From: a virus
Lineage: Duplodnaviria > Heunggongvirae > Uroviricota > Caudoviricetes
Reading direction: 5' to 3' (one strand)
DNA length: 64,000 bases
IMG/VR virus record: IMGVR_UViG_2872147552_000001
Shown here: positions 6,336 through 63,150 of the stretch, in pieces
Numbering within the stretch: the first letter of the stretch is position 1
How the letters are laid out: the number at the start of each line of letters is the position of its first letter
Made by a program: the position numbers and the translations under genes
Notes under the pieces: generated by a model
What the model was told of the DNA's origin: nothing
Seen by the model: the letters and a program-made list of their open reading frames with translations, nothing else
Database searches by the model: none

Positions 6336-6378
6336 GTGCTTTCCTTTGTTTTTTAAACAAATTGTTTTCTAGTATTAG

Positions 6379-7233: not shown

Positions 7234-7291
7234 GACCTGCTTCCGTATATATATTTAATAAGTTACTTATTATTTATATACAGAAACAGGT
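7234..7291. repeat. 58-bp AT-rich imperfect palindrome, copy 1 (second copy at 40272-40329)
   Basis: gacctgcttccgtatatatatttaataagttacttattatttatatacagaaacaggtc; about 95% identical to copy 2. Confidence 0.7.
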
Positions 7292-8207: not shown

Positions 8208-8567
8208 TTAACTCTTCTTCATTAACTCGCGTTTAATTTCATCGGTACGCATCGTGACATCGGCAGCAGTGATCGCCTCGTTCAGCTTCACGATGTCCTC
8301 GATTTCCTGCGGTGTCTTCTCCGCAAGATGGAAAATAGCAGCACGAATCACATCAGAGCGGGTGAATTTCTCAAAGCGAGGGATGAACTTCATCATCTCC
8401 AGCAGTTCGAAGTATTCGTCTTCCAGTGACATTGTGCGGCTTTTAATTTTCTCTTTGCCACGAGTCGGGCGTCCCTGTGGTCTGACTGGTTGGCGCAAAG
8501 GAGTTGTGTTCTTAGCCGGTGCATCAGGCTCTTTGCGCTTTGCTAGGTCACCCATTTTCATGGACAT
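8208..8567 (-). CDS. small partition protein (ParG/RHH-like centromere-binding partner of ParA)
   Basis: 119-aa basic N-terminus, immediately downstream of and overlapping parA stop. Confidence 0.55.
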   Translation of the reverse strand: MSMKMGDLAKRKEPDAPAKNTTPLRQPVRPQGRPTRGKEKIKSRTMSLEDEYFELLEMMKFIPRFEKFTRSDVIRAAIFHLAEKTPQEIEDIVKLNEAITAADVTMRTDEIKRELMKKS

Positions 8568-9235
8568 TATTCTTTTTCCTCCAGACTCAACAGATAATCT
8601 ACAAATTCTTCAAACTCGGCTTCCGCCTTTTTGTCGCGCTCGCTACCGGTCATTTCAAAGATAGAACGACCAGACTCTTCCGCATCATCATAGACGTTGC
8701 GGTTATATAGATTGACTGGCGCAGACTCGATGCCAAACGTCTCAACAATCTCTTTAGCCGCCAGAATGCGAGACACTTGTGATGGCAAAGCCGGACACTG
8801 GTTCATGACCGCGCGGACCTTCACTTTATCGTTTACATTACGAACATTGTCGATAATAGGATCGATATCACGCAGAGATTTCAAATCACGACGCTTAGGA
8901 CGAAGCGGGATAATGATAACGTCGGCCATCAGCATCGCTTGTCGCTGAATTTCGGAGTCAAAGCCACCAGCATCTACCACGACAAACTCAGCTCTACCCT
9001 GAAGCGATTTTAGGTGCTTAATGATGTCATCCTGAACGTATGCAAAAGGAATCAGCTCAAGGTCTTCGTTCTGTCGACGGTCTTCACACCAGCTCGTTGT
9101 CGTGCGCTGAATATCTATATCGGTAATATAAACCTTCTTCTTCTTTTTGACTTTCAGGCAAACGGCAATTTGCTGGGCAACGGTGGATTTGCCAGGCCCG
9201 CCCTTTGTGCCGCCAACCACAAAGATCTTGGTCAT
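8567..9235 (-). CDS. parA: ParA-family partition ATPase (small type Ib)
   Basis: Deviant Walker A GGTKGGPGKST, Walker B VVVDAGG; 222 aa. Confidence 0.85.
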   Translation of the reverse strand: MTKIFVVGGTKGGPGKSTVAQQIAVCLKVKKKKKVYITDIDIQRTTTSWCEDRRQNEDLELIPFAYVQDDIIKHLKSLQGRAEFVVVDAGGFDSEIQRQAMLMADVIIIPLRPKRRDLKSLRDIDPIIDNVRNVNDKVKVRAVMNQCPALPSQVSRILAAKEIVETFGIESAPVNLYNRNVYDDAEESGRSIFEMTGSERDKKAEAEFEEFVDYLLSLEEKE

Positions 9236-9553
9236 TGGAGAGTTCCCTTTGCGTATATAATTATCGTCTGAAACAACTTGTTTTCTTATATGTGATATAG
9301 CCTAAATGCCTACGGCTGCGGTGTAAAGGTTAAATGGTAGGTTGTGATTAACAATTGGCAATCATAGCTTGTATTTGTCTGTTGAAAAAAGTAACAATGA
9401 CCTCTATATTACAAGTACGGTGTTATGCCGTACACAATTTGATAATGCACACGTAATGGGCTATAGCCTTTTAAAGTAATTTTTGAGTCGAAAACTCAGT
9501 TTGAACAGAGGAGATTGATGGCCTTCCTACATCACGGCCATCAGGAGGAATAC

Positions 9554-9823
9554 ATGTCAGCACTAAAAAAGCAGCGCATCGATTTGAGATTAACCGATGA
9601 CGATAAAAGCATCATCGAGGAAGCTGCCGCAATGTCTAACCAGAGCATTACTCAGTTTATGGTTAGCAGTGCATCTGAACGTGCCGTGAAAGTTATAGAG
9701 CAACACCGTAGACTAGTTCTAAGTGAAGAGTCCTGGAATCTGGTTATGGATGCTATAAGCAATCCTCCGGCACCGAACGACAAGCTGAAACGAGCTGCCA
9801 ATCGTCTGAAAAGCATGGAGTAG
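9554..9823 (+). CDS. antitoxin of GNAT toxin (DUF1778, AtaR/TacA-like)
   Basis: Start placed at MSALKKQRIDLRLTDDDK with AGGAGG RBS (track ORF starts at TTG 9515); 8 nt before toxin gene. Confidence 0.75.
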   Translation: MSALKKQRIDLRLTDDDKSIIEEAAAMSNQSITQFMVSSASERAVKVIEQHRRLVLSEESWNLVMDAISNPPAPNDKLKRAANRLKSME

Positions 9824-9830
9824 TTTACTC

Positions 9831-10352
9831 GTGAGCAATACGACGATCGAGATTTTCTCTGGAGAGAACGATTATGATCTAAACGGTTTTGATTGCGGCG
9901 AAGAGTCACTAAACGCATTTTTGACCAACCACTTAAAAAGACAGCATGAAGGAAAAATTCTTCGCGCTTATGTGCTTTGCACTAAAGAAGAAATACCAAA
10001 GGTATTAGGTTATTACACTTTGTCAGGCAGCTGCTTTGAGAAAGAAACCTTACCTTCAAAGAGTCAGCAAAAGAAAGTGCCTTATCGGAATGTCCCAAGT
10101 ATCACTTTAGGCAGACTGGCTTTGGACAAATCTCTTCAAGGTCAGGGGCTTGGCTCAATGCTTGTAACTCACGCAATGCGTGTTGTGTACAATGCATCTC
10201 TTGCGGTAGGCATTCATGGGCTTTTCGTTGAGGCGTTGAACGATAAAGCCAGGGCGTTTTATAAAAGTTTGGGCTTTATCCAGCTGGTTGGTAACAACGA
10301 TCGTTCTTTGTTCTATCCAACAAAATCTATCGAAAAATTGTTCGAAGAATAA
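9831..10352 (+). CDS. GNAT-family acetyltransferase toxin (AtaT/ItaT/TacT-like)
   Basis: YDLNGFDCGEESLNAFL..., GNAT motif A LQGQGLGSML and motif B AFYKSLGF; 173 aa. Confidence 0.85.
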   Translation: MSNTTIEIFSGENDYDLNGFDCGEESLNAFLTNHLKRQHEGKILRAYVLCTKEEIPKVLGYYTLSGSCFEKETLPSKSQQKKVPYRNVPSITLGRLALDKSLQGQGLGSMLVTHAMRVVYNASLAVGIHGLFVEALNDKARAFYKSLGFIQLVGNNDRSLFYPTKSIEKLFEE

Positions 10353-38266: not shown

Positions 38267-39523
38267 CTATCGAGAACCACCAAGAATAACACGGTTTTTG
38301 ACTGGATACCTACGATGTACTGGATAGCCCAATGCGTCTGCACTATGCTCAATGCCACCTGTCTTATCCATATCTCGTGTTCCAGGCTTGTAGATGACTT
38401 TTTCCAGTGAATCAATCAAATGCTTGCACTTCGGATCGATATACAGCCGGATATCTCCAGATGCGGTCATCAGCATTCGGTTAACAGCATTAACACGATC
38501 CGCAATTGGCGGGTGCTTTTTCGAATAATCGACACGTAAGAATCCCTTCTCTTTGAATATGTCGACGTCAGACTCCCCGCGAGCATGTTGGCGATAAGCA
38601 CCTGCCGGATCTGGAAATACCGTTATCTGTGATTTCCAGCGCCAGAAGCGTCTCTCAAGCTCATCACAAACCTCTGCCGTGTTAGAGGAAAAGAGCACCA
38701 ATTCATCAATTGCCCATAGCTCACCATTTGGCTGAGGTTGCAAAATTACTGAAGACATCGGGTCAATGTTGAAGTCCTGCCCTACCCATATAGGCAACCG
38801 AGGGTTGAACTGAAGCGGTTTTACATGCACGTTACGATCGAACGGGTAGTAAACGCGCCCGGACATGTTCTCAAAGCTCGCCAGGTACTCCTGAGCGAAC
38901 GATTTCGGGTCCATATCGTTCTTAGCAGCTTCAATTTCCGCCGTAGGTACAAACGGAGAATCGGCAGTTACAAACTGCCAGCTCTTCCACTGTCCCTTTC
39001 TTTGCAGCTCTACGTTCTGGCCTATAGTCCACAGTTTGTGAAATTCCGAGAAGCCTTTTGGCGTACCAATGATCAGTGCACCGCCGCGTGTCGATGAAAG
39101 AGTAGGTCGTAACACCTTGTACCAGGTGTCAGCCTTCATATCCTGAAATTCATCAAGCACTACAAAATGCAACGCTACGCCGCGCAGAGTGTCAGGCTTA
39201 TCAGCACCTTTGAGGGCGATCTCCGAACCGTTCTTCAACACGATTGTCATCGTGGTGTCGTTCTTTTTCCTAACCCACTTACGAGGCAGAACTTCCTGTA
39301 GATCGTCCCACAAAATCTGGCGAGCCATCTGGTAAGTAGGAGCGACATACCAGACCCTTTGCTTTTTTTCCTTTGCCGCCGCACGAATAATAGTGGAGAT
39401 CGACAACCGGGATTTTCCCCAGCGTCGACCAGCACAAACAACTTTAAATCGATGCGGAGACTGGAAGACTTTCATCTGTCCAGAATGCAGTTGCACAAGA
39501 CTGAGCGAGGACGGGATTGCCAT
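38267..39523 (-). CDS. terminase large subunit
   Basis: Walker A CAGRRWGKS, Walker B VVLDEF, C-terminal nuclease-like domain; overlaps TerS stop. Confidence 0.9.
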   Translation of the reverse strand: MAIPSSLSLVQLHSGQMKVFQSPHRFKVVCAGRRWGKSRLSISTIIRAAAKEKKQRVWYVAPTYQMARQILWDDLQEVLPRKWVRKKNDTTMTIVLKNGSEIALKGADKPDTLRGVALHFVVLDEFQDMKADTWYKVLRPTLSSTRGGALIIGTPKGFSEFHKLWTIGQNVELQRKGQWKSWQFVTADSPFVPTAEIEAAKNDMDPKSFAQEYLASFENMSGRVYYPFDRNVHVKPLQFNPRLPIWVGQDFNIDPMSSVILQPQPNGELWAIDELVLFSSNTAEVCDELERRFWRWKSQITVFPDPAGAYRQHARGESDVDIFKEKGFLRVDYSKKHPPIADRVNAVNRMLMTASGDIRLYIDPKCKHLIDSLEKVIYKPGTRDMDKTGGIEHSADALGYPVHRRYPVKNRVILGGSR

Positions 39524-40155
39524 TATTCGTCCTCCCCTTTACTTCCATCATCTGTCGCATCAAATTCGCTTAGAGCTTCTTCTTCTAACGTCTCAAGCAA
39601 TTCGTCATCGATGATTTCAGGCTCGTCGTCTTCCTGACGTAATTTCGCCACCTGGGAAGGCGTAAGCTCACCAAATACCAGGTTCGGAATTTCTTCCTCG
39701 TCATTTTCCGCATGATCCATGCCCAATGCTTTGGACGAAACTTCAAAGCATTTTGCAAGGGTATTACTGGCTCTCTGTAAGCTCTTGAGAGAATCCTCAA
39801 TCGCCCCTAAAGGCTTACCCTCACGTTTGGCCGTAGTGACTTCGACCATCACCATCTGCCCCAACGCATACGCCCAGCCGTCATAACGTGTACGACGTTC
39901 TTCTATCTTTTCCGCACGGGCTTTAGCGCGAAGCTCTGCGTCAGATTTAAGAGACTCACGAACCATCTTCCCAACAGAGTCCGCGCCTTTCTCTAATCCT
40001 CGCTTTTTGAAATGTCTGGAGAGTGTTTCACGACGAATGCCGTACTCTTCCTCCAGCTTTGAGAGTGTATATTCGCCTGACGTCCATTTGGCTTCAGCTT
40101 CGGCCCACTCCGCTGGTGTCAGGCGAGTTTTTACCTCGTCTTTTTCGACCGTCAT
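39523..40155 (-). CDS. terminase small subunit
   Basis: 210 aa, N-terminal HTH-like region, acidic C-terminus; directly upstream of TerL. Confidence 0.7.
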   Translation of the reverse strand: MTVEKDEVKTRLTPAEWAEAEAKWTSGEYTLSKLEEEYGIRRETLSRHFKKRGLEKGADSVGKMVRESLKSDAELRAKARAEKIEERRTRYDGWAYALGQMVMVEVTTAKREGKPLGAIEDSLKSLQRASNTLAKCFEVSSKALGMDHAENDEEEIPNLVFGELTPSQVAKLRQEDDEPEIIDDELLETLEEEALSEFDATDDGSKGEDE

Positions 40156-40271
40156 AGATCCCTCTAAAACACACAGAGCGCGTCCATGCGCTCTAAAACA
40201 ACTTGTTTACTGAATCTGCTAACCAACTTGTTTTCTGGGGTGTTTAATTAGGTCTGGGCATGTCTTATTAA

Positions 40272-40329
40272 GCCTGCTTCCGTATATATTTAATAAGTTA
40301 CTTATTATTTATATATACAGAAGCAGGTC
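40272..40329. repeat. 58-bp AT-rich imperfect palindrome, copy 2, flanked by GGTCTGGG / CCCAGACC inverted repeat
   Basis: gcctgcttccgtatatatttaataagttacttattatttatatatacagaagcaggtc; upstream of terminase operon; two GAAAACAA.TTGTTTTC-type sites lie at about 40190-40240. Confidence 0.7.
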
Positions 40330-40351
40330 TTTAAATAAGCTCCCAGACCGG

Positions 40352-40618
40352 TTACATCACCAGTAACTTCGCTTTGGCTCGACCTAAAGTGGTTAACCCA
40401 AGAGTTCGGCGGTGATAGCGATTGTCACTGCGTTGGCGCGTATGCCCTTTCTCCACCAGCCCCTTTTTTATCAGAGCGCGAATTGAGAACTGGATACTTT
40501 GCTTGGTTGTCTTGTACGGCAAAACTTCAAGCAATTCGTCCAGATCAAGTAAATGACCTCGCTCATAACCGAGGTTGAGCGTTTTGATGATGTCCTTTTG
40601 TTTATCGGTTAACGTCAT
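40352..40618 (-). CDS. small winged-helix DNA-binding protein (putative regulator)
   Basis: 88 aa with LEVLPYKTTKQSIQFSIRALIKKGLVEK helix-turn-helix-like segment. Confidence 0.45.
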   Translation of the reverse strand: MTLTDKQKDIIKTLNLGYERGHLLDLDELLEVLPYKTTKQSIQFSIRALIKKGLVEKGHTRQRSDNRYHRRTLGLTTLGRAKAKLLVM

Positions 40619-43772: not shown

Positions 43773-43797
43773 TAAGTAATCACTTACTTATTATAAT
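43773..43797 (+). promoter_or_regulatory. divergent promoter/operator region (TAAGTA-NN-CACTTA operator overlapping TATAAT -10)
   Basis: taagtaatcacttacttattataat between divergently transcribed ParB-like and helicase genes. Confidence 0.5.
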
Positions 43798-45398: not shown

Positions 45399-45677
45399 AT
45401 GAGTGAAAAGAAAACAACTTACTGTCAGGTAGCATTGTCTGATAAGGCCAATGACAAACTTGGAAAGTTTCAAGTGAAACTAAAAGAAAAAAATATCAAA
45501 ATGTCTAAGGCTGAAGTCATAAATACCATTCTGGAACAATTGACAATGGCCGACTTTGACAAGGTTATATCTTCTGTCGGGGCTTCCGCTAAGACTCGTG
45601 AGAAAATCATGCGTATCTATGAGAACTCTAATATGACAAAGGAAGATCTCGAAACGCTATTAAGCAGATTAAAATAA
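45399..45677 (+). CDS. small putative RHH-type DNA-binding protein
   Basis: 92 aa, coupled to helicase stop; KFQVKLKEKNIKMSKAEVINTILEQ resembles ribbon-helix-helix. Confidence 0.45.
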   Translation: MSEKKTTYCQVALSDKANDKLGKFQVKLKEKNIKMSKAEVINTILEQLTMADFDKVISSVGASAKTREKIMRIYENSNMTKEDLETLLSRLK

Positions 45678-46172: not shown

Positions 46173-46697
46173 ATGACAACCAAAGATATTACCTACGGTA
46201 TCCAAGCTGAACTCTGGCCGCGAGATTACACTAACGTTGAAAAACTACTGATGTTCTGGCGCAGAGAACAAATTCCTGTAAGGGTCACTCTCGAAGATGG
46301 CCAGGCGTTTTGCATGTACGTTTATGGCCTCATGCCATCTCGTAACAAAGTTGACCTTTGCCCAGCCCCTTTTGACAAAGAAAATCGTATAAGGCTCCCA
46401 CTTGAACGCATTAGTACAATTGAATCAGGTGTGGTTGACAGTATCGCTCACGATTTCAAAGGTCGACTAACAGTTCACCCTGATTATGTCGATAATCGGC
46501 CATCACGCCGCGATTTTTTTGCAATTTGCAACCAAGCCTACAAAGCAAACAAATCTATAAGGGTGTACATGGCGGATGGCCGTGAAATTGAGGGGGTGTC
46601 AGCAGGCGCAGATGCTTGTCAGGTTACACTACGTGTCGAGAACGGTAGAAAAATAGTTGTTTTGTTCGATTGGGTTGAACGAATTTTGCCTTTTTGA
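46173..46697 (+). CDS. hypothetical protein with internal duplicated beta-rich motif
   Basis: Start placed at first Met after upstream stop (track from 46095); repeated IPVRVTLEDG / IRVYMADG segments. Confidence 0.5.
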   Translation: MTTKDITYGIQAELWPRDYTNVEKLLMFWRREQIPVRVTLEDGQAFCMYVYGLMPSRNKVDLCPAPFDKENRIRLPLERISTIESGVVDSIAHDFKGRLTVHPDYVDNRPSRRDFFAICNQAYKANKSIRVYMADGREIEGVSAGADACQVTLRVENGRKIVVLFDWVERILPF

Positions 46698-49064: not shown

Positions 49065-49547
49065 TTACACGCCATCAAGGATGTGGATGCGGTTGCTTGC
49101 GTATACATTCAGCATAAAGTTAGCGCAAAACAGTTTCCATGTATCAACGCCAGCGGTATACGTAATGTTTTTGCATTTAATCGCATTGTTGGCGATCCGC
49201 ATCCCCTGCGATACTGCTTCATCGTCGGAAAATTTGAACGACGATTGAGTTTTAATCCAGACAGAAATCTGCGTAGCGAACTCAATCAGCTTGGACTGGC
49301 AGAATCGCCCGGAGCGCACCGGAAAGACGAACGTTCCGAATCCAGAATTTACCACATACGCTTTCTCAAATACCCGCGAGTAACGACGATTGCCAATGAT
49401 GTCGCGTGCAATAATGCATTTTTCTTGTGCTGACAGTTCTACCGTCTCATTGTCGCGCCATGCACCAAGTACTCGTTTTTCAATGTCAGAGAACGTTACA
49501 GCGATATTGCCATGTGCGGGTGCGTTTACAGTAGCGATAAAATTCAT
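49065..49547 (-). CDS. hypothetical protein
   Basis: 160-aa ORF with AAGGA RBS; GAAAACAA.TTGTTTTC-type operator upstream. Confidence 0.55.
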   Translation of the reverse strand: MNFIATVNAPAHGNIAVTFSDIEKRVLGAWRDNETVELSAQEKCIIARDIIGNRRYSRVFEKAYVVNSGFGTFVFPVRSGRFCQSKLIEFATQISVWIKTQSSFKFSDDEAVSQGMRIANNAIKCKNITYTAGVDTWKLFCANFMLNVYASNRIHILDGV

Positions 49548-49724
49548 GATTAATTCCTTATCGTAAATAACAAATTGTTTTCTTGTTGGTGTTAATTATC
49601 GTTGTACGAATAAGGCGTCAAAGTGGAAAGTTGCGGTAGCCGGACGGGAACAGGTGGGTTTGTCGGTTGCCTGGAGGTAAGAGGTTGGTGTTTTTAGCCT
49701 GCGGGAAACAGGATGGTCATTTAA

Positions 49725-49744
49725 GGCCACCAGCATTGGTGGCC
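49725..49744. terminator. hairpin terminator (ggccaccagcattggtggcc)
   Basis: Perfect 8-bp stem immediately downstream of the 49752 gene stop; related hairpins at about 50196-50216, 51821-51839, 58827-58847, 63100-63120. Confidence 0.55.
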
Positions 49745-49751
49745 TTAATCT

Positions 49752-50039
49752 TTAGTGGAGCAGACCGATGTCGATGGTATCCCCTGAATCATCCACACGG
49801 ATCATCAGCATGGCGAAGGCGTTTAGTGGATAACTGGCGTGCCATTCAGGGAAGCGGTCATCTCGCATGAAGTCGGCAATGTCGTAAACGCATCCCTCAA
49901 AGTGGAAGAATCGCGTGCTTACCTGCTCGTCATATTCCACATGATCCATTTCTTGCTGTTCTGTTTCCGGCAAGTCCAGCCATGATTCAAGGAATACATT
50001 TTGTGCTTTAGGGGTAATGGTGAAATCAGTCATGAGCAT
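49752..50039 (-). CDS. small acidic protein
   Basis: Start at MLMTDFTITPK with GAGGA RBS (track ORF to 50165 would cover the upstream operator); strongly acidic. Confidence 0.55.
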   Translation of the reverse strand: MLMTDFTITPKAQNVFLESWLDLPETEQQEMDHVEYDEQVSTRFFHFEGCVYDIADFMRDDRFPEWHASYPLNAFAMLMIRVDDSGDTIDIGLLH

Positions 50040-50368
50040 ATCCTCACTGCGTAAACATGTTGTTTTCTTGTTGGTGTAATTATCGCAGTGTAGATAAGGC
50101 ATAAAAGAAGTTAATACAGGCTGAATACACAAGAAAGGTTCTGGAAGTTGATAGCCAGGTTTCAAACTAACCTTCGGTTATTAAAAGTCATTTAAGACCA
50201 CCAATGCTGGTGGCCTTAATAATTATCGACCGATTACGCTAAGGATCTTTTCCTCAACTGATTTGTTGTTGCGACTAAACTGCCTTGCGTATCTGATGAC
50301 AGAAGAGGCGTTTTGCTTTCTGACCATCTCGGCTCTTTCCTTCAGGCGTTTCTTGAAATCGCCCATAT

Positions 50369-50743
50369 TTACCACCAGGCGCAGAAGGTCAGTCTGTTAT
50401 TGTGAAAGTCGTGGTTCTTAATCAGATCTTCCACAATCTCTTTCAACTCCCCCACATCATGCCAGTAACCTTCATCGTACTCCTGACTGCCGAAGAAAAA
50501 ACCTTCCCGGGTAGGCAAGTACTCTTCGCAATTACTTTCGTTTATGTGCATCAAATGAGCCTTCAGAAAACAAATGTCATTCATCGTTAATTCTAAAAGC
50601 TCACAATTTTCGACTTCACCTACGTTGCGCTCCATCCACCCAACGAGCGCATTGAACTTACGGAAGTAAGCAACCTGCTTTCTGGATGCCTCGTTATTCA
50701 GATCGTTTTTAGGCTGTGTCTCGATATAGATATCAAGTCCCAT
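50369..50743 (-). CDS. small acidic protein
   Basis: Start at MGLDIYIETQ with AAGGAAA RBS (track to 50785). Confidence 0.55.
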   Translation of the reverse strand: MGLDIYIETQPKNDLNNEASRKQVAYFRKFNALVGWMERNVGEVENCELLELTMNDICFLKAHLMHINESNCEEYLPTREGFFFGSQEYDEGYWHDVGELKEIVEDLIKNHDFHNNRLTFCAWW

Positions 50744-50860
50744 GATGGTTTCCTTATTAAGTTGCTTCAGTGAAATCATTTTCACAAATCAGATAAGGCA
50801 GAAAACAAATTGTTATCGGGCATAAGAAAATGGCGCGGTTTACGCGCCATTTAAAGAGGA

Positions 50861-51382: not shown

Positions 51383-51694
51383 TCAGGCTATTGCCATCAC
51401 TGATGCTCTCTGAATTTCTTGCTGGGCCACGCGGTTAACTTCCATCAAAGCCAGTTCGAGCTGATGTTCCGGCCACATTCTTTGAAATGCCATCCAGCCT
51501 TTTCCACGCTGGCGACGAACATTCATTACATAACGAGTAAAGGTGTTTTTATCGAAAGACACCGCTGTTTCACGGAACAGACGAATAGAGGTTCCATTGG
51601 CAACGATGTCCAGCAAAGTTAATTGAGCAACCAGCGCAGGCTTCTCTTTTCTCTTCTGGTCTTTGTCCAGACCAAGAACCAATGATTTTTTCAT
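51383..51694 (-). CDS. hypothetical small basic protein
   Basis: Start at MKKSLVLGLDK with ACGGAG RBS (track to 51724). Confidence 0.5.
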   Translation of the reverse strand: MKKSLVLGLDKDQKRKEKPALVAQLTLLDIVANGTSIRLFRETAVSFDKNTFTRYVMNVRRQRGKGWMAFQRMWPEHQLELALMEVNRVAQQEIQRASVMAIA

Positions 51695-51848
51695 CACAAC
51701 TCCGTAAACAACTTGTTTTCTCAATGGCGTAAATAATACCAGTAAGAAAACGGCTACAAAGCATAATGATCAGGTGCATGATCGATATGCAGGTTCTTCC
51801 CTGCGGCTACATATTAAGTTAAGCCAGCAATGCTGGCTTTGGTTGGGG

Positions 51849-52178
51849 TTACTCGAATACTTCAAGAAACTCCTGAACGTCCCAATGCTGGACGAGGTGA
51901 AGATAGACCTTAGAAATCACGTCATTTTCGCTATCGCATGTGAAGTAGTACTTCTGGCTGCGGTTGTATGTGTCCACACAAAATTCGCTCATATCCATAA
52001 AGTCAGCATCTTCACCCATGTCGCAAATCATCAAAGCAGGTGCGTCATCACGAGTCATCAGCTCAAGCACCCACCGCGAATTGATCAGAGTGGAAGACCA
52101 ACCTTCTAACTCATAAAACTGATCAAACTCTTTTTGAGTTAATTTCTTGATTTGGTTGATGTCGATATTTGCAAACAT
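51849..52178 (-). CDS. small acidic protein
   Basis: Start at MFANIDINQIKKL with AAGGA RBS (track to 52196); net charge about -17. Confidence 0.55.
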   Translation of the reverse strand: MFANIDINQIKKLTQKEFDQFYELEGWSSTLINSRWVLELMTRDDAPALMICDMGEDADFMDMSEFCVDTYNRSQKYYFTCDSENDVISKVYLHLVQHWDVQEFLEVFE

Positions 52179-52537
52179 AAAGCAATCCTTAAACAACTTG
52201 TTTTCTTGATGGTGTTATTATCGCAATAACGCACAGGCGAAAAAGGATTTTATTCCGGTGAATGTGGTTTTGGCAGTGAGTTTTCAGGTTCAGTACCGAG
52301 TACACTTTTTACATTATTCTGATTTAGTGGCCGAAGGTGGCTGGTGGGCAGAATAATCATCTCCCCGAAAACCTACTGAAATCGATTGTGACCCGTTGGC
52401 TGTCTGGCACAATTACGCTGTAGCTGGGCATTCAGAGGGAGTCCAACGGTAAGTTAGTCCGCCTGCACGTGAGCGCCTCTCTTCTTCCCGCACATTACAG
52501 GTGGGTAGCCGCAACTCTCCCTCACGCTATACCGGTA

Positions 52538-52680: not shown

Positions 52681-53731
52681 GAAGGCTGACCGTAGGGGTG
52701 TTACGGGGGATAAAATCAGGAGTTGAATAAATACGAAAAAGGAGGCGACACCCCTCCTTCCCTCCCCACTTATACATACCTGGCTTCTTCGCTATACATG
52801 TTGTGTTTTATTCGTGTTTTATCTGTCTCAACCTCTCTATGGACGTTAACACTCACTCCTTCCAGAACGTTCTATACGGCGACTAATTCTGTTGGTGAAT
52901 TGGGTGTGTTGTTCTCTCTGTCGGTGTATGTGGTTTCGTTCGTTTTGCGGTGGTTCTTCTATGGGGTGTTCTCGTCGTTTTGGTGATTGTTCTTCTCCGT
53001 GTATGGAGTAATGGCAGGTGGGCGATTCCTTTCGTTGTTGTGTTTGAGTTGTTTGTCTGGAGTGTGAAAGGCTTTTGTAGTTATTCGTGTATTGGGTAAT
53101 GGCGTTTCCCGTGATTGTTCTGTTTCGTGTCTTTTGGGATTGAGAGAAGCCTTGCGGTTACAGGCTTCGTTGGGGGTTCAGTGATTCTGGTGTTTCTTCG
53201 CTGTTTGGGTAATGGCGTGTCGTGGGTATCGCGCGTATGAATGTTTTCGGATTGCCTGTGAAAGTTAGGTTGGTTGTCCGGTAGCCTGGGGAGAAGAGGT
53301 GGGTCTTTTCGGTAGCCTGCCATAAAGAGGTTGGTTGTTTTTGGAAATGGCATATGTGTTATTTAGTTGTTTTGTTATGCCTGAAAATAAGTTGTTTATA
53401 TGGTTATGTAACGCAACGGGAACGATTTTGAGCGTGTGTTTTTGTTGGTAGTGTGTTGGGTCGTCTGTGGTGAAAATTGGACGCTGTGGCGCTGTCTGCT
53501 GCGTAGAATTACGGGTATAAGCAGTGATGTGTGAAAACGTCAATTTTTTAGACCAAATAGGGTGAAAGCGTTGATGTTTCGTTGATCTGTTATTTAGTTG
53601 TTTTCTTGTTTGTATAAACAACTATAACCTATTGATATTTAAGGATGTGATTGCGGGTATGGAAGGGGAGTAGTGGCGATCAACGGATTCTTATAGAAAA
53701 GAATCAAATTGTGACCGCCATTATCAATGTT

Positions 53732-54811: not shown

Positions 54812-54931
54812 TTCAACCACTCCGAAACAATTTGTTTTCTTATGTGGTTTATTATCTCCATCAACAAAAGGCAGAAAACAAATTGTTTTAGGTACTGTGT
54901 AAATCAGAAGGGATTGTGTCTATATGAAAAT

Positions 54932-54972: not shown

Positions 54973-57006
54973 TTACTTAACCTGGTGGCCAGGTTTAGCA
55001 CCAGCATCCGGGCTTAACAGGAAGATATCTTTCCCGCCGGGGCCAGCAGCCATCACCATGCCTTCAGAGATACCGAAGCGCATTTTACGTGGTGCCAGGT
55101 TAGCCACCATAATGGTGTGACGACCAATCAGTGCCTGTGGATCTGGATAAGCGGAACGGATGCCTGAGAAGACATTACGCTTTTCACCACCGAGATCCAG
55201 CGTCAGGCGAAGCAGTTTGTCAGAACCTTCTACAAACTCTGCGTTTTCAATCAGCGCCACGCGCAGGTCAACTTTGGCGAAGTCGTCAAAGGTGATAGTT
55301 TCCTGAATCGGGTCGTCAGCCAGTGGGCCAGTTACCGGTGCGGCTGTGGCTTTCACTTCTTCTTTGGATGCTTCCACCAGTGCTTCAACCTGCTTCATAT
55401 CGATGCGGTTATACAGTGCCTTGAACGGATTTACTTTATGGCCCAGCAGCGGTTGCTGGATACCATCCCAGGTCAGTTCTGTATTCAGGAATGCTTCTGC
55501 ACGTTCAGTCAGTTTCGGCAGTACCGGCTTCAGGTACGTCATCAGCACGCGGAACAGGTTAATGCCCATAGAGCAAATCGCCTGCAGATCGGCATCGCGA
55601 CCTTCCTGCTTCGCCACCACCCACGGAGCCTGTTCATCGACATAGCGGTTAGCCAGGTCAGCCAATGCCATGATTTCACGGATAGCTTTACCAAATTCGC
55701 GGCTTTCCCATGCTTCGCCAATCACTTCAGCGGCATCAGTAAAGGTTTTGTACAGTTGCGGGTCAGCCAGTTCGCTTGCCAGCACGCCGTCAAAACGCTT
55801 GTTTATAAAGCCTGCATTACGGGAGGCCAGGTTAACCACTTTGTTCACGATATCGGCATTCACGCGCTGAACGAAATCCTCCAGGTTGAGATCGATATCA
55901 TCAATGCGCGAAGAGAGTTTCGCAGTGTAGTAGTAACGCAGGCTGTCGGCGTCAAAATGATTCAGCCAGGTGCTGGCTTTAATAAAGGTGCCGCGAGACT
56001 TGGACATCTTCGCGCCGTTCACCGTCACATAGCCGTGAACAAACAGGTTGGTCGGCTTGCGGAAGTTGCTGCCTTCCAGCATGGCAGGCCAGAACAGGCT
56101 GTGGAAGTAAACAATATCTTTACCGATGAAGTGGTACAGCTCGGCGGTGGAGTCTTTCTTCCAGTATTCATCGAAGCTGGTGGTATCGCCGCGCTTGTCG
56201 CACAGATTCTTGAAGGAACCCATGTAGCCAATCGGCGCGTCCAGCCAGACGTAGAAATATTTGCCCGGCGCGTCCGGAATTTCAAAACCGAAGTAAGGCG
56301 CATCGCGGGAGATATCCCACTGTTGCAGGCCGGATTCAAACCATTCCTGCATTTTGTTCGCCACCTGCTCCTGCAACGCGCCGCTGCGGGTCCATGCCTG
56401 CAACATTTCGCTGAAAGAAGGCAGATCAAAGAAGAAGTGTTCGGAATCACGCATTACCGGGGTAGCGCCAGAAACCACCGATTTCGGCTCGATCAATTCA
56501 GTCGGGCTATATGTTGCGCCGCAGACTTCACAGTTATCGCCGTATTGATCTGGCGCTTTACATTTCGGGCAGGTGCCTTTTACAAAACGATCCGGCAGGA
56601 ACATGCCTTTTTCCGGGTCGTACAACTGAGAGATAGTGCGGTTTTTAATAAAACCGTTCTCTTTCAGGCGAGTATAGATAAGCTCAGACAACTGACGGTT
56701 CTCTTCGCTGTGCGTCGAGTGATAGTTGTCATAGCTGATGTTAAAGCCTGCGAAATCAGTCTGGTGTTCCTGACTCATTTCGCCAATCATCTGCTCCGGT
56801 GTGATACCAAGCTGCTGCGCTTTCAGCATGATCGGCGTACCGTGGGCATCGTCGGCACAGATGAAATTAACCTCGTGGCCGCGCATTCGCTGGTAACGAA
56901 CCCAGACATCAGCCTGGATGTGCTCCAGCATATGGCCGAGGTGGATTGAGCCGTTAGCGTACGGCAGCGCGCACGTCACCAGAATTTTCTTCGCGACTTG
57001 GGTCAT
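54973..57006 (-). CDS. metG: methionine--tRNA ligase
   Basis: 677-aa product starting [37 protein letters not shown] and KMSKS motifs, Zn knuckle CPKC...CEVC; recalled from memory as near-identical to E. coli MetG; track ORF has a 43-codon spurious N-terminal extension. Confidence 0.97.
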
Positions 57007-57163
57007 AGTAGGCATTACTTCTTTGTAGTGAAAAGGGGCTTGATAGTAACAAAATGGCCTTATGTCTGCCATGTGATAACAGCATTTCTCATAAATGATT
57101 AAATGTCGTAGCTGGAGTACACTACAAGGCGACAATTGCGCAAATTAAAATAAAGGAGACGGG

Positions 57164-58264
57164 ATGAGCGAGTCCAAATCGCCGGATGCCCTGAGAGCAA
57201 TGGTAGCCGGTACGCTGGCTAATTTTCAGCACCCAACCCTGAAACACAACCTGACTACGCTTAAAGCGTTACACCATGTTGCGTTGATGGATGACACACT
57301 GCATGTCGAACTAATCATGCCTTTCGTGTGGAATAAGCCTTTTGAAGACCTGAAAGAGCAATGTAGTGGTGATCTGCTCCGTATCACTGGCGCAAAGGCT
57401 ATTGACTGGAAGCTGTCGTACAACATTGCCACGCTTAAGCGCGTCAAAAACCAACCAGGCATTAATGGCGTTAAGAACATTATCGCCGTCAGCTCAGGCA
57501 AGGGCGGCGTGGGTAAATCCTCCACGGCGGTAAACCTGGCACTGGCGTTGGCTGCTGAAGGTGCGAAAGTTGGTATTTTGGATGCCGATATCTATGGTCC
57601 ATCAATTCCAACCATGCTGGGTGCGGAAAACCAACGTCCAACCTCACCTGACGGTACTCACATGGCACCTATCATGTCTCATGGCCTGGCAACCAACTCT
57701 ATTGGTTATCTGGTCACCGACGACAATGCAATGGTGTGGCGTGGACCGATGGCCAGCAAGGCGCTGATGCAGATGTTGCAGGAAACTCTATGGCCTGATC
57801 TGGACTATCTCGTTCTCGATATGCCGCCGGGCACTGGTGATATTCAGTTGACGCTGGCGCAGAACATTCCTGTAACTGGTGCGGTTGTGGTAACTACGCC
57901 GCAAGACATCGCGCTGATCGATGCGAAGAAAGGCATTGTGATGTTCGAAAAAGTCGAAGTGCCGGTACTGGGTATCGTCGAAAACATGAGTGTGCATATT
58001 TGCAGTAACTGCGGTCATCACGAGCCAATTTTTGGCACCGGTGGCGCACAGAAACTGGCCGAGAAATACAACACGCAGTTGTTAGGCCAAATGCCACTTC
58101 ATATCTCTCTTCGTGAAGATCTGGATAACGGAACACCAACCGTTATTAGTCGTCCAGATAGCGAATTTACGGCTATTTATCGTGACCTCGCAGATCGCGT
58201 TGCCGCCCAAATGTATTGGCAAGGTGAAGTAATACCTGGCGAAATCGCATTCCGCGCAGTGTGA
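57164..58264 (+). CDS. apbC: Fe-S cluster carrier ATPase Mrp/ApbC
   Basis: P-loop SGKGGVGKSST, CxxC motif ICSNCGHH; 366 aa; divergent from metG as in the E. coli chromosome. Confidence 0.95.
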   Translation: MSESKSPDALRAMVAGTLANFQHPTLKHNLTTLKALHHVALMDDTLHVELIMPFVWNKPFEDLKEQCSGDLLRITGAKAIDWKLSYNIATLKRVKNQPGINGVKNIIAVSSGKGGVGKSSTAVNLALALAAEGAKVGILDADIYGPSIPTMLGAENQRPTSPDGTHMAPIMSHGLATNSIGYLVTDDNAMVWRGPMASKALMQMLQETLWPDLDYLVLDMPPGTGDIQLTLAQNIPVTGAVVVTTPQDIALIDAKKGIVMFEKVEVPVLGIVENMSVHICSNCGHHEPIFGTGGAQKLAEKYNTQLLGQMPLHISLREDLDNGTPTVISRPDSEFTAIYRDLADRVAAQMYWQGEVIPGEIAFRAV

Positions 58265-58301: not shown

Positions 58302-58691
58302 CTACATCACGGGACAATCATCAAACTCGCCACTTCTTGCGTCGTTGATAATGTGAGTGATCACACCAAACACGGCATTGCTGCCCGTGCATCCATCGTC
58401 ATCCTTTGGCAATGCTTCCTTCTTACCGGTTCTTAAATCCTCCAGATGCTGACGTGGGTACTTCCGGTATCTTTTTACGCGATATTCCCCATCCAGAGCG
58501 CATACAAGCAGAGAACCATCAACCGGGGTAAGCGAGGAATCGACCACCAGCAATGCACCCTGTAATATTCCCTCACGATGATGACTATCAGCTGCCCTCA
58601 TGAAGTAGGTCGCTGAAGGATGTCTAATTATCTGCTGATCAAGAGAAATACGGCTCTCAGCATAATCCGCCGCAGGAGAAGGGAAGCCCAT
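58302..58691 (-). CDS. UmuD'-like S24 peptidase (lacks N-terminal arm)
   Basis: Begins MGFPSPAADYAE (equivalent to the UmuD cleavage-site region), retains Ser (DSH) and Lys (RVKRYRK) of the catalytic dyad; 129 aa. Confidence 0.75.
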   Translation of the reverse strand: MGFPSPAADYAESRISLDQQIIRHPSATYFMRAADSHHREGILQGALLVVDSSLTPVDGSLLVCALDGEYRVKRYRKYPRQHLEDLRTGKKEALPKDDDGCTGSNAVFGVITHIINDARSGEFDDCPVM

Positions 58692-58863
58692 AGCGTTTTG
58701 CCCTCAATACTGTTCATTTATACAGTATACATGAAAGAAGCTCACTCAGTGCAACTGATCGGTACATAGCACCAGACAAAGGAACGTTATTTTCTCGAAC
58801 AAGAAAAGGTAGAAAACAAATTGTTTAAGGCCACAACTAGTGGCCTTAATGGAGAAGGGATGC

Positions 58864-61851: not shown

Positions 61852-62405
61852 TACGATGCCTCTAACTTGTCTAACTCTTTCAGCCCTTCACGTACCGCGT
61901 TCACAATGCGTTCCAGATACTGGTATTTCGGGTTTGGTACCGTTGGCCAGTCGGCATACCACGGATCATCACCAAAGAGATTCAGTAGTTTGTTACCGAC
62001 GCCGAAACAGCAGCAGCTTTCTTTTACGTCATCGGCGTTTTCCGCCTCGTCCCACATTTCGCGAGCCAGTACGGCGTCTATTTCTCTCTCTCTTCGTAAC
62101 TTTATGATTTCTGACTTCACGAAAAGCAGATTTGCATCGTTGTCATCGTCGACCGTGCTTCGCAGTTGAGGGTCGAAATAGCCGATTAGATACTCGTTGC
62201 TGACCCGCTTAATGAACGTCTGCACATCATCACCGCCCATAGCAAACCAAGCCGCAGTCCACGCTTTTCCGTAGCAGGTGATGGTGATTCTTCCCTTACC
62301 AGGTTCGTAGTTTTCAATCATCACTCGAACCGGATCGAGGCGTTCCAGATCCGTCAGCACAAAGGAAAGAACATCTATTTTTTCGATCTTCATGCAGCCT
62401 CCCAC
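61851..62405 (-). CDS. hypothetical protein
   Basis: 184-aa ORF coupled in operon. Confidence 0.45.
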   Translation of the reverse strand: MGGCMKIEKIDVLSFVLTDLERLDPVRVMIENYEPGKGRITITCYGKAWTAAWFAMGGDDVQTFIKRVSNEYLIGYFDPQLRSTVDDDNDANLLFVKSEIIKLRREREIDAVLAREMWDEAENADDVKESCCCFGVGNKLLNLFGDDPWYADWPTVPNPKYQYLERIVNAVREGLKELDKLEAS

Positions 62406-63031
62406 GCGCTCCAGATCAGCGATTTGTGTTTTTCATAACGTTTGATGTGTACCGGTTTCAGAAGCGCAATACCTTCAGTGACTTTCGCCATTGCGCTTAA
62501 TAACAACGGGTGTTCTATACCTATCCTCTCCATGTACTCGACAACATCAGCGTTGGCACCAATCTCCTTCCCGTTAAAAAGTACGTCCAGCATCAGCTCT
62601 TTCTCTGCAAGGTAGATAGCTGAAAACTCAGGATCGCGACTCACGATAGAAGAGGTATTGTCGAGCAGGTCAGCCAGCTTGATCATGCGCGTCTGCATGT
62701 CGAGATTTTGCTCCAGCTCCCGGACATTGATGATGAAACGCTGTATTCGATTGCCGTCTTCTGGCCTTGCAATGTTGGTCAGAGCCTGAACCATTTCAGC
62801 TACGCGCTCACCGAAGTGATCACGAACCATCTCTATGGTTACATGGGTGTCTTCGACCACATCATGCAGAAGCGCCGCGATTTGCATCTCCACGGTTCCG
62901 TCATGCAATGCAACAATCTCTCGGACAGCAACCGGGTGGTTGATGTAGTCTTCGCCGGTATATTTTCTTTTCTGACCAACGCCACCATGAGCGCCAGCGG
63001 CGAACATATGAGCTTCGGAAATACTAGACAT
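62390..63031 (-). CDS. HD-domain phosphohydrolase
   Basis: H...HD signature (IAALLHDVVEDT) and downstream His/Asp; 213 aa. Confidence 0.65.
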   Translation of the reverse strand: MSSISEAHMFAAGAHGGVGQKRKYTGEDYINHPVAVREIVALHDGTVEMQIAALLHDVVEDTHVTIEMVRDHFGERVAEMVQALTNIARPEDGNRIQRFIINVRELEQNLDMQTRMIKLADLLDNTSSIVSRDPEFSAIYLAEKELMLDVLFNGKEIGANADVVEYMERIGIEHPLLLSAMAKVTEGIALLKPVHIKRYEKHKSLIWSAWEAA

Positions 63032-63150
63032 TCTTAACTCCGTTGTTTTCTAGTTGTGGTTATTTTCACAAATAAGAAAAGGTAGAAAACAATTTATTTA
63101 AGGCCACAACTTATGGCCTTTATTTATTCATGCCGAAGGATTTGTAGCGT

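What the first reader, a model, noticed from the sequence alone, without database searches (positions are those of the whole stretch)
49561..49600. Second palindromic operator family GAAAACAA(A/C)TTGTTTTC, often fused to a conserved promoter-like block or a hairpin terminator
A 17-bp 8-1-8 palindrome recurs at about 6349, 9271, 40195, 40231, 49565, 50045, 50805, 51705, 52185, 54825, 54866, 58812 and 63072. It lies upstream of parA, the helicase operon, the terminase operon and nearly every small accessory gene. Several copies are followed by a conserved TTG(T/A)TGGTGTTAATTATCG block, and two abut the ggccaca..tggcc hairpin. This looks like a single-repressor regulon (compare P1 C1 operators) keeping accessory, partition and early genes silent. 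It also occurs on both sides of metG/apbC.
Basis: seen in the sequence. Interest (0 to 1): 0.6.

Follow-up and report, generated by a model that had tools for sequence, protein, structure and literature searches.

The report
Shared operator on SSU5-type phage-plasmid promoters
A 17-base near-palindrome sits at a fixed distance from the −10 box of about twenty promoters in a widespread family of phage-plasmids (SSU5, pHCM2, pMT1), so it is almost certainly the binding site of one still unidentified repressor that switches those promoters off together.

Summary
The exact palindrome never occurs. A degenerate form, GAAAACAANTTGTTTAA, occurs 13-14 times in the window and about 19 times in the whole 108-kb element, always between genes.

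The window is an E. coli SSU5-like phage-plasmid, close to phage Cyrano. Every site serves a gene on the lytic (−) strand. The sites sit in two fixed registers relative to a sigma-70 −10 hexamer. Either the hexamer ends 11-12 nt upstream of the site (about +6 to +22), or the site ends exactly 17 nt upstream of the hexamer (about −47 to −31). Some promoters carry both, 51 bp apart. The distance to the start codon varies, the RNA hairpin is weak, and the better half-site always faces the −10. I therefore read it as a DNA operator acting on transcription initiation.

The motif is unchanged in SSU5, in Y. pestis pMT1 and in a Klebsiella relative whose candidate regulator proteins are only 33-78% identical. 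It is absent from a Moellerella relative.

The binder is unresolved. My best guess, at about one in three, is the ParG-like partner of ParA (8208-8567). A host factor is not excluded.

It is a new member of a known kind, comparable to P1 C1 operators or the RK2 kor regulon.

The parts
49566..49582 (-). Operator of the finding. On the − strand it reads GAAAACAATTTGTTATT. Class I (downstream of the −10), 18 nt before the ATG of the 160-aa gene 49065-49547.
49595..49600 (-). −10 hexamer GATAAT of that promoter, 12 nt upstream of the operator. A TTGACG −35-like hexamer lies 15 nt (TTTGAC 16 nt) further upstream.
6353..6369 (-). Class I operator GAAAACAATTTGTTTAA, 17 nt before the ATG of the DnaB-like helicase gene (4995-6335).
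9269..9285 (-). Operator GAAAACAAGTTGTTTCA, 33 nt before the ATG of parA (8567-9235).
40194..40235 (-). Two operators 25 bp apart (40194-40210 and 40219-40235), upstream of the small-terminase-like gene 39523-40155.
50051..50067 (-). Class I operator. The −10 TGcGATAAT lies at 50079-50084, 11 nt upstream. Gene 49752-50033.
50801..50817 (-). Class II operator GATAACAATTTGTTTTC. The extended −10 TGtGAAAAT (50778-50783) lies exactly 17 nt downstream. Gene 50369-50743.
51704..51720 (-). Class I operator. The −10 TATTAT lies at 51733-51738. Gene 51383-51694.
52189..52205 (-). Class I operator. The −10 TGcGATAAT lies at 52217-52222. Gene 51849-52178.
53383..53399 (-). Weak copy ATAAACAACTTATTTTC (score 18), upstream of gene 53081-53353. 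No clear −10 in register.
54823..54890 (-). Composite promoter: class II operator 54874-54890, 17 nt, −10 GATAAT 54851-54856, 11 nt, class I operator 54823-54839. The operator centres are 51 bp apart. Gene starts at about 54811.
58812..58828 (-). Class II operator directly after the hairpin GGCCACTAGTTGTGGCC (58829-58845). The −10 GAAAAT lies at 58789-58794. The next gene is the S24 peptidase (HumD-like) 58302-58691.
63043..63101 (-). Class II operator 63085-63101 after a hairpin, then the extended −10 TGtGAAAAT at 63062-63067, then a half-operator GAAAACAA at 63043-63050 in the class I register. Gene 62390-63031.
8208..8567 (-). 119-aa partner of ParA. It is the best, but unproven, candidate for the protein that binds the operators. 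It has a disordered basic N-terminal tail, an invariant IKSRTMS strand and an invariant FTRSDVIRAAI helix start.
8567..9235 (-). Short (222 aa) ParA/MinD-type ATPase, the first gene of the operator-headed partition operon.

Best explanation
The motif is a double-stranded DNA operator, with consensus GAAAACAANTTGTTTAA and dyad symmetry over the central 13 bp. An oligomeric, probably dimeric, sequence-specific protein binds it and represses about 20 independent sigma-70 promoters of an SSU5-type phage-plasmid.

The promoters are of two kinds. Some are extended −10 promoters (TGnGATAAT). Others have a TTGGAC −35 borrowed from the preceding terminator hairpin. The operator is placed either over the −35 position (about −47 to −31) or over the start of the transcript (about +6 to +22). 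Some promoters carry both, 51 bp apart and so on about the same face of the helix. Bound protein would therefore keep RNA polymerase from binding or from leaving the promoter.

Shown here: the sites exist, their position is locked to the −10, they have polarity, they are conserved across relatives, and their genes are silent in a lysogen. Inferred: that a protein binds them, that the effect is repression, and which protein it is.

My first choice for the binder, at about 35%, is the 119-aa ParG-like (probably ribbon-helix-helix) partner of the short ParA encoded at 8208-8567. If that is right, it would act like omega of pSM19035 or KorB of RK2. It would autoregulate the partition operon and co-repress replication, packaging and accessory promoters, and the scattered sites might also serve as centromeres.
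For: - Enrichment: 11 matches against 0.06 expected. All 14 window sites are intergenic, with chance about 3e-13.
- Fixed geometry, measured on 59 sites in three genomes. In 19 sites a −10-like hexamer ends 11-12 nt upstream. In 13 sites a −10-like hexamer starts exactly 17 nt downstream. The spacing to the ATG varies from 9 to more than 33 nt.
- Polarity: the half-site facing the −10 is GAAAACAA in 19/19 class I sites and in 11-13 of 13 class II sites, position by position. The far half is TTGTTT(A>T)(A>C). The arrangement is mirrored about the −10, which makes sense only for duplex DNA.
- Deviations from the consensus are one-sided and never compensatory. The RNA hairpin is worth only −0.7 kcal/mol for typical sites. 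Rfam has no match in the window.
- Conservation: the same motif and architecture occur in SSU5 (about 21 sites), in Klebsiella plasmid CP027615.1 with candidate proteins 33-78% identical (about 21 sites) and in pMT1 (7 sites).
- Lysogen RNA-seq of the near-identical phage Cyrano (PMC9928086, Table S1): 13 of 16 operator-headed genes are at background, 5-14 against a median of 9.8.
- For the ParG-like candidate: it follows a 222-aa ParA/MinD ATPase, and the family-2 site is the only palindrome in register with the parA promoter (a second palindrome, 9345-9364, lies about 85 bp further upstream).
- It is expressed in the lysogen at 89 against a background of 9.8.
- Its predicted DNA-reading segments IKSRTMS and FTRSDVIRAAI are invariant across lineages down to 48% identity.
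- It has a weak match to the RHH regulator family aCcr1 (E 2e-4, below cut-off), and the AlphaFold2 model has helices at 48-61 and 70-82 in the RHH register.
- The Moellerella relative lacks the regulon but keeps a GAAAACAA half-site at the same place in its parA promoter.
Against: - No binding or transcription-start data exist. The −10, −35 and +1 assignments are sequence inferences, and the strict consensus promoter scan did not call these promoters.
- The lysogen silence is not specific, because almost all lytic-strand genes are at background.
- parA (50), the helicase gene (21) and CYRAN_111 (25) are above background despite their operators.
- Against the ParG-like candidate: pMT1 keeps 7 intact sites without ParA or the ParG-like protein. 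It is a recent, degenerate derivative, so this is weak evidence.
- The Moellerella protein has a nearly identical reading strand (KSRTVSM), yet that element has no regulon.
- The RHH fold is not established. There is no Pfam hit and no Foldseek hit, and the model's mean pLDDT is 65.
- The complete invariance of the motif across elements with such divergent proteins would also fit a conserved host protein.
Confidence: 0.72

Rival explanations
1. The sites are DNA operators, but they are bound by a conserved host protein of Enterobacteriaceae and Yersiniaceae rather than by a phage-plasmid protein. The element would have recruited a host regulator to gate its promoters.
For: - The motif is identical in elements from E. 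coli, Salmonella, Klebsiella and Yersinia, even where the candidate regulator proteins are only 33-78% identical.
- It is absent from the relative that lives in Moellerella, a member of the Morganellaceae.
- No phage-encoded candidate passes every test.
Against: - No enterobacterial regulator known to me has this site. NadR, TyrR, KdgR, CusR and PurR boxes share words with it but differ in spacing or orientation. This rests on my own knowledge, not on a test.
- No open-access paper contains any of the four 13-mers or the consensus.
- About 20 sites in 108 kb is typical of element-encoded global regulators.
- Host chromosomes could not be scanned with these tools.
Confidence: 0.15
2. The motif works at the RNA level. 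It would be a 5'-UTR hairpin or sequence next to the ribosome-binding site, bound by a translational repressor. One such repressor could be the FljA homologue encoded at 46173-46697, by analogy with FljA acting on the fliC leader or RegA of T4.
For: - Class I sites lie in the predicted 5' UTR, 9-33 nt before the start codon.
- The window encodes a full-length FljA-family protein (PF03614, E 2.5e-84, with a weak Hfq-like match).
- That gene is present in every motif-bearing genome examined and absent from the motif-less Moellerella element.
Against: - The spacing is fixed to the −10, not to the Shine-Dalgarno sequence or the AUG.
- Class II sites lie upstream of the −10, directly after terminator hairpins. 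They carry the opposite orientation, so they would give a different RNA.
- The hairpin is worth only −0.7 kcal/mol. Stem mismatches are common and there is no compensatory change.
- The FljA homologue varies from 65% to 100% identity among closely related elements that share the invariant motif.
- The E. coli fliC leader has no similar sequence.
Confidence: 0.06
3. The sites are scattered centromeres or recombination and shuffling signals with no role in transcription. They would resemble the dispersed SopB sites of N15 or the promoter/stem-loop cassettes of T4-type phages.
For: - One copy sits at the parA promoter.
- Homology breakpoints between the window and Cyrano, SSU5 or pMT1 fall within about 20-90 bp of six cassettes.
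- The cassettes of terminator, operator and promoter are clearly paralogous.
Against: A purely structural or recombination role does not explain the exact 11-12 nt and 17 nt registers to the −10, or the mirrored polarity. These roles could well coexist with repression rather than replace it.
Confidence: 0.07

Closest known systems
Phage-plasmid P1 C1 repressor with its many dispersed 17-bp operators
   Same: A plasmid prophage in which many separate promoters across the genome each carry a copy of one 17-bp operator, so that one protein controls them together.
   Different: The P1 operator is asymmetric (ATTGCTCTAATAAATTT, from my own knowledge) and has no match in the window with up to 3 mismatches. 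Here the core is dyad-symmetric. The CI-like repressor of this family (CYRAN_45 type, outside the window) appears to use a different motif and is missing from SSU5, which still has the sites.
Global regulons of plasmid partition proteins: KorB/KorA of RK2 and omega of pSM19035
   Same: A short palindromic or repeated site is scattered over many promoters of a plasmid and is bound by the centromere-binding protein, which also autoregulates the partition operon. Here a short ParA and a small partner protein sit behind one of the sites.
   Different: Binding by the partner protein is not shown. The ParB-domain proteins of this element are silent in the lysogen and are conserved in a relative that lacks the motif. 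The site sequence and spacing differ from OB (TTTAGCSGCTAAA) and from omega heptads (own knowledge).
Stoperators of cluster A mycobacteriophages (L5 gp71)
   Same: Twenty to thirty repressor sites lie in short intergenic gaps across a phage genome. Many are downstream of promoters, where bound repressor blocks transcription (PMC9283540, seen).
   Different: Stoperators are asymmetric, are bound by a monomer and are oriented with respect to transcription. Here the sites are near-palindromic and locked to the −10 in two mirrored registers.
Promoter-early/stem-loop (PeSL) cassettes of T4-type phages
   Same: Repeated units of a terminator hairpin plus an early promoter flank small accessory genes and coincide with mosaic junctions. 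This element also carries T4-like replication and recombination genes.
   Different: PeSL cassettes are not described as carrying an operator (own knowledge). Here a conserved operator is part of the cassette.

Membership tests
Multi-operator repressor regulon of a temperate phage or plasmid (functional class) | Many copies of one short motif, far above chance and confined to promoter regions | tested here: met
   11 matches against 0.06 expected. 14 of 14 are intergenic. About 19-21 per element in three genomes.
Multi-operator repressor regulon of a temperate phage or plasmid (functional class) | Fixed position relative to the core promoter elements | tested here: met
   11-12 nt downstream of the −10, or exactly 17 nt upstream of it. 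The promoters themselves are inferred from sequence.
Multi-operator repressor regulon of a temperate phage or plasmid (functional class) | An identified cognate DNA-binding protein | tested here: inconclusive
   Seven candidates were compared across five genomes and none passes all tests.
Multi-operator repressor regulon of a temperate phage or plasmid (functional class) | Target genes are repressed when the regulator is present | tested here: inconclusive
   In the Cyrano lysogen 13 of 16 operator-headed genes are at background, but so are most lytic genes.
P1 C1 operator family | Asymmetric 17-bp operator ATTGCTCTAATAAATTT | tested here: not met
   0 matches with up to 3 mismatches.
Type Ib partition locus with a ribbon-helix-helix centromere-binding autoregulator (ParF/ParG, delta/omega) | Short Walker-type ParA without an N-terminal DNA-binding domain | tested here: met
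   222 aa, with MipZ, AAA_31, CbiA and ParA Pfam matches.
Type Ib partition locus with a ribbon-helix-helix centromere-binding autoregulator (ParF/ParG, delta/omega) | A small downstream protein with a flexible N-terminal tail and an RHH fold | tested here: inconclusive
   119 aa. Residues 1-47 are disordered or unstructured and helices lie at 48-61 and 70-82. There is a weak aCcr1 (RHH) match, E 2e-4, below the cut-off. There is no Pfam, PDB-sequence or Foldseek match.
Type Ib partition locus with a ribbon-helix-helix centromere-binding autoregulator (ParF/ParG, delta/omega) | Binding sites of that protein upstream of parA | not testable with these tools
   One family-2 site lies at the parA promoter in E. 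coli, Salmonella and Klebsiella elements, and a half-site in Moellerella. Binding itself needs an experiment.
KorB/ParB-type global regulon | A ParB-family protein with a sequence-specific domain, present whenever the sites are present and expressed in the carrier state | tested here: not met
   Two ParB_N proteins exist. They are at or below background in the lysogen and are 44-68% conserved in the Moellerella element that lacks the motif.
FljA-type translational operator | Site in the mRNA leader, positioned with respect to the ribosome-binding site | tested here: not met
   The distance to the ATG varies from 9 to more than 33 nt. Class II sites lie upstream of the −10 in the opposite orientation.
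Known RNA families (Rfam 15) | A match at the family's gathering score | tested here: not met
   0 matches in the whole window.

The most novel reading that the evidence does not exclude
The small partner of ParA (8208-8567) is both the centromere-binding protein and the global repressor of the lytic, replication and accessory promoters of SSU5-type phage-plasmids. The roughly 20 scattered operators would then double as a distributed centromere. Partition status and copy number would feed directly into the decision to keep phage genes silent. The operator-promoter-terminator cassettes would let newly acquired accessory genes plug into that control.
Probability: 0.3. Interest if true: 0.7.

Novelty: new member of a known kind. 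Interest (0 to 1): 0.5.

Why it matters
SSU5-type phage-plasmids are common in clinical Enterobacteriaceae. About 800 PLSDB plasmids carry the genes examined here, among them Y. pestis pMT1; the S. Typhi plasmid pHCM2 is, from my own knowledge, a close relative. They also carry resistance and accessory genes. How they keep about 100 kb of phage genes quiet is essentially unstudied, and I found no open-access paper that mentions this motif.

A defined operator with a precise promoter geometry gives a direct handle on the problem. A 17-bp bait can be used to fish out the regulator. A set of about 20 promoters can be followed on induction. The element's transcription units can also be annotated more reliably.

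The concept itself, one repressor with many dispersed operators, is classical.

Tried and rejected
- Exact-pattern scan of IMG/VR for the motif. It gave no information on distribution, so I ran no further search on the same question.
- The search for related loci and the search for homologous proteins with the ParG-like protein. The family is confined to SSU5-like elements. No independent, non-phage context was available to tie the site to the partition module.
- A truncated copy in Klebsiella plasmid NZ_CP102988 lies next to an IS5 element and has no parA.
- Structure route. The AlphaFold2 model of the ParG-like protein has mean pLDDT 65 and no Foldseek or PDB-sequence match. The single-sequence model of the FljA homologue has pLDDT 36 and is unusable.
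- Pfam, PHROGs and NCBIfam searches on the candidate regulators and on the small genes behind the operators gave almost nothing.
- CI-like repressor CYRAN_45: rejected. It is absent from SSU5, and its own intergenic region lacks the motif and carries a different word family.
- HicB-like HTH protein: rejected. It is absent from the Klebsiella relative that has the motif.
- 71-aa winged-helix protein at 811-1026: rejected. It is absent from phage PhiR41_1 and from pMT1.
- Winged-helix protein at 40352-40618: rejected. Its recognition helix is unchanged in the motif-less Moellerella element, and it is silent in the lysogen.
- RHH-like protein at 45399-45677: rejected. Its predicted strand reads TYCQVAL, IHCQVQL or VSCHLKL in elements that share the same motif.
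- FljA homologue: rejected. It is hypervariable.
- Sigma-28 promoter idea for the CGATAA block: rejected, because no −35 lies in register (by reading).
- Literature searches for the motif or for SSU5 regulation found nothing relevant.

Full report
**What the window is.** The window is 98% identical to E. coli plasmid NZ_CP061531.1 (108,197 bp) and to phage Cyrano, also known as pLF82. These are members of the SSU5 / pHCM2 / pMT1 family of phage-plasmids. Window positions 1-64000 correspond to plasmid positions of about 22,753-84,968. Nearly all phage genes lie on the window's − strand. The + strand carries the genes that are expressed in the plasmid state: toxin-antitoxin pairs, apbC, and a UvsW-like helicase operon.

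**Checking the observation.**
- The perfect palindrome GAAAACAA(A/C)TTGTTTTC never occurs.
- Allowing two mismatches gives 11 matches against 0.06 expected. The 11-bp core gives 15 against 4.0 expected.
- A symmetrised weight matrix finds 13 strong sites and one weaker site in the window, and about 19-20 in the whole plasmid.
- All 14 window sites are intergenic in a stretch that is only 12.8% non-coding. The chance of this is about 3e-13.
The statements about parA, the DnaB-like helicase, the terminase operon, the small accessory genes and the two hairpin-abutting copies all hold.

**Anatomy.** I read the sites on the coding (−) strand, which gives two classes.
- Class I: a −10-like hexamer (GATAAT, TATTAT, CATAAT or TAAAAT, often preceded by TGn) ends 11-12 nt upstream of the site. 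The gene starts 9-33 nt after the site.
- Class II: the site directly follows the terminator hairpin of the preceding gene, and a −10 hexamer (GATAAT or GAAAAT, usually with TGn) starts exactly 17 nt after the site. The site therefore occupies the −35 position.
- Across three genomes, 19 sites meet the strict class I register and 13 meet the class II register. Many of the other 27 look like class I with a less clear −10.
- Where a −35 exists it is often TTGGAC, supplied by the descending arm of the upstream terminator hairpin.
- Several promoters carry both classes, with centres 51 bp apart. Examples are window 54874/54823 and SSU5 88317/88368 and 93660/93711. The terminase promoter has two sites 25 bp apart.
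- The motif has polarity. The half that faces the −10 is GAAAACAA in 19/19 class I sites and in 11-13 of 13 class II sites, position by position. The far half is TTGTTT followed by A more often than T, then A more often than C.
- The working consensus is therefore GAAAACAANTTGTTTAA, symmetric only over the central 13 bp and mirrored about the −10.

**DNA or RNA?** Five points favour duplex DNA and transcription initiation.
- The register is fixed to the −10, while the distance to the start codon floats.
- Class II sites lie upstream of the −10 in the opposite orientation, so they would give a different RNA.
- Deviations from the consensus are one-sided, with no compensatory pair anywhere.
- The best RNA hairpin is worth −0.7 kcal/mol for typical sites and is often not in the predicted fold of the leader.
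- Rfam finds nothing in the window.

A position of +6 to +22 is compatible with repression, not activation. The −47 to −31 position on promoters that rely on an extended −10 could in principle go either way. One protein acting at both places is most simply a repressor.

**Comparative evidence.**
- SSU5 (Salmonella) has about 21 sites with the same consensus and architecture.
- Klebsiella plasmid CP027615.1 is a distant member whose candidate regulator proteins are 33-78% identical to those of the window. It also has about 21 sites, again in both classes and with clear TGnGATAAT promoters.
- Y. pestis pMT1 is a degenerate derivative. It keeps 7 sites, most of them identical to the SSU5 copies at the matching promoters.
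- The SSU5-like plasmid of Moellerella (Morganellaceae) has no such regulon. Its only intergenic match is a half-site, GAAAACAATATATTTTT, at the equivalent place in its parA promoter.

**Expression.** Table S1 of PMC9928086 gives RNA-seq values for a Cyrano lysogen in LB, with a background median of 9.8.
- Of the 16 genes headed by the 18 Cyrano sites, 13 are at 5-14.
- parA is at 50, the helicase gene at 21 and CYRAN_111 at 25.
- This fits repression in the lysogen. Taken alone it is weak evidence, because almost every lytic-strand gene is at background.
- The argument gains force from the promoters themselves. They look like self-sufficient sigma-70 promoters, each with its own terminator. 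If so, their silence needs something that acts at each of them.

**Who binds?** I compared candidates on five criteria:
- presence in all motif-bearing genomes;
- conservation of the likely DNA-reading segment between the window and the distant Klebsiella element;
- absence or change in Moellerella;
- a plausible DNA-binding fold;
- expression in the lysogen.

The results for each candidate:
- CI-like repressor (CYRAN_45, outside the window). It is absent from SSU5. Its own control region lacks the motif and is rich in ACTTAC/GTAAGT words. It probably uses the other palindrome family.
- HicB-like HTH protein. It is absent from the Klebsiella relative.
- Winged-helix protein 40352-40618. It is 78% and 61% conserved, with an unchanged recognition helix even in Moellerella. 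It is silent in the lysogen at 7.8.
- Winged-helix protein 811-1026. It is absent from the phage PhiR41_1 and from pMT1, and it is silent in the lysogen.
- RHH-like protein 45399-45677. It is well expressed (114), but its predicted beta-strand differs in each lineage.
- ParB-domain proteins. They are silent (5-9.5) and are conserved in Moellerella.
- FljA homologue (PF03614, E 2.5e-84). Its phyletic pattern is perfect. However, its family acts on mRNA (own knowledge), it varies from 65% to 100% identity among otherwise near-identical elements, and it is barely expressed in LB (18).
- ParG-like partner of ParA (8208-8567). It is expressed at 89 and sits behind an operator-bearing promoter. IKSRTMS and FTRSDVIRAAI are invariant across lineages down to 48% identity. 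It has a weak match to an RHH family and a helix pattern that fits RHH. Against it, pMT1 keeps sites without it, and Moellerella has it with a near-identical strand but only a half-site.

I rank the ParG-like protein first at about 35%. Some other element-encoded protein, for example the P1 Cra-like 70-aa protein that shares the phyletic pattern, comes next. A conserved host factor follows at about 15%.

**Comparison with known systems.**
- The logic matches P1 C1 and its dispersed operators. The sequence and symmetry differ, and the P1 operator has no match in the window.
- It also matches the kor regulon of RK2 and omega of pSM19035 if the partition partner is the binder.
- It resembles mycobacteriophage stoperators in the number of sites and their intergenic placement, but not in symmetry.
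- The terminator-operator-promoter units flanking small genes, with homology breakpoints close to them, recall the PeSL cassettes of T4-type phages.
- I found no open-access paper describing this motif or the regulation of SSU5-type elements.

**Verdict.** The motif is a real, strongly non-random and conserved operator family. It has a precise dual promoter geometry in a clinically common phage-plasmid family. The mechanism, repression of transcription initiation, is well supported by anatomy. The regulator is not identified. It is a new member of a known kind, of moderate interest. The interest would rise if the partition protein proves to be the global repressor.

Noticed in passing
window 7256-7272, 40291-40307, 43777-43793: A second palindrome family, TAATAAGTTACTTATTA, has 3 copies against 0.16 expected. 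The 40291 copy is the centre of a near-perfect palindrome of about 55 bp (40268-40330) upstream of the terminase promoter. The 43777 copy lies in the 65-bp divergent ParB/helicase promoter region. Related ACTTAC/GTAAGT words crowd the control region of the CI-like repressor outside the window, so these are likely that repressor's operators.
   Followed up: partly
window 46173-46697 (+): A full-length homologue of FljA, the Salmonella repressor of phase-1 flagellin (PF03614, E 2.5e-84), sits in the + strand operon behind a UvsW-like helicase. It is present in 834 PLSDB plasmids, including Y. pestis pMT1. It is unusually variable (65-100% identity) among otherwise near-identical elements. It may target host flagellin mRNA.
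   Followed up: partly
window 49721-49748, 50192-50219, 58825-58849, 63100-63120: A family of terminator hairpins, TTAAGGCCAC..GTGGCCTTAA, closes the small accessory genes. Two of them are fused to class II operators.
   Followed up: partly
window 50106, 50792, 51765, 58729, 63057, 63130: Breakpoints of homology with Cyrano, SSU5 and pMT1 fall within about 20-90 bp of operator/promoter cassettes. This suggests that accessory genes are exchanged by recombination between cassettes.
   Followed up: partly
window 9345-9364: A separate palindrome, TGATTAACAATTGGCAATCA, lies between parA and the divergent kacA/kacT (TacA-like antitoxin and GNAT toxin) genes at 9515-10352. It is possibly the antitoxin's operator.
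   Followed up: no
window 54973-57135 and 57164-58264: Full-length metG (methionyl-tRNA synthetase) and apbC genes are embedded among the accessory genes. In the Cyrano lysogen apbC is expressed about 9-fold above background and metG is not.
   Followed up: no
whole element (e.g. before window genes at 6335 and 9235; plasmid NZ_CP061531.1 and CP027615.1): The start region AAGGAAAACACATG is strongly over-represented, with 9-13 copies of AAAACACATG per element. Many genes share a stereotyped translation-initiation region.
   Followed up: no
L213-L215 (Moellerella plasmid NZ_CP093251.1): This SSU5-like relative lacks the operator family. It has its own repeated hairpin word, GCCTAGCTCCCATA (8 copies), and two direct repeats, ATAACAAGGC, just before parA.
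   Followed up: no
L218-L219 (Y. pestis pMT1, NC_003134.1): pMT1 keeps the structural genes, both ParB-like genes, the FljA homologue, the CI-like repressor and 7 intact operators of the SSU5 type. It has lost the ParA/ParG-like, helicase-primase and nrd regions and uses a P1-type ParAB instead.
   Followed up: partly
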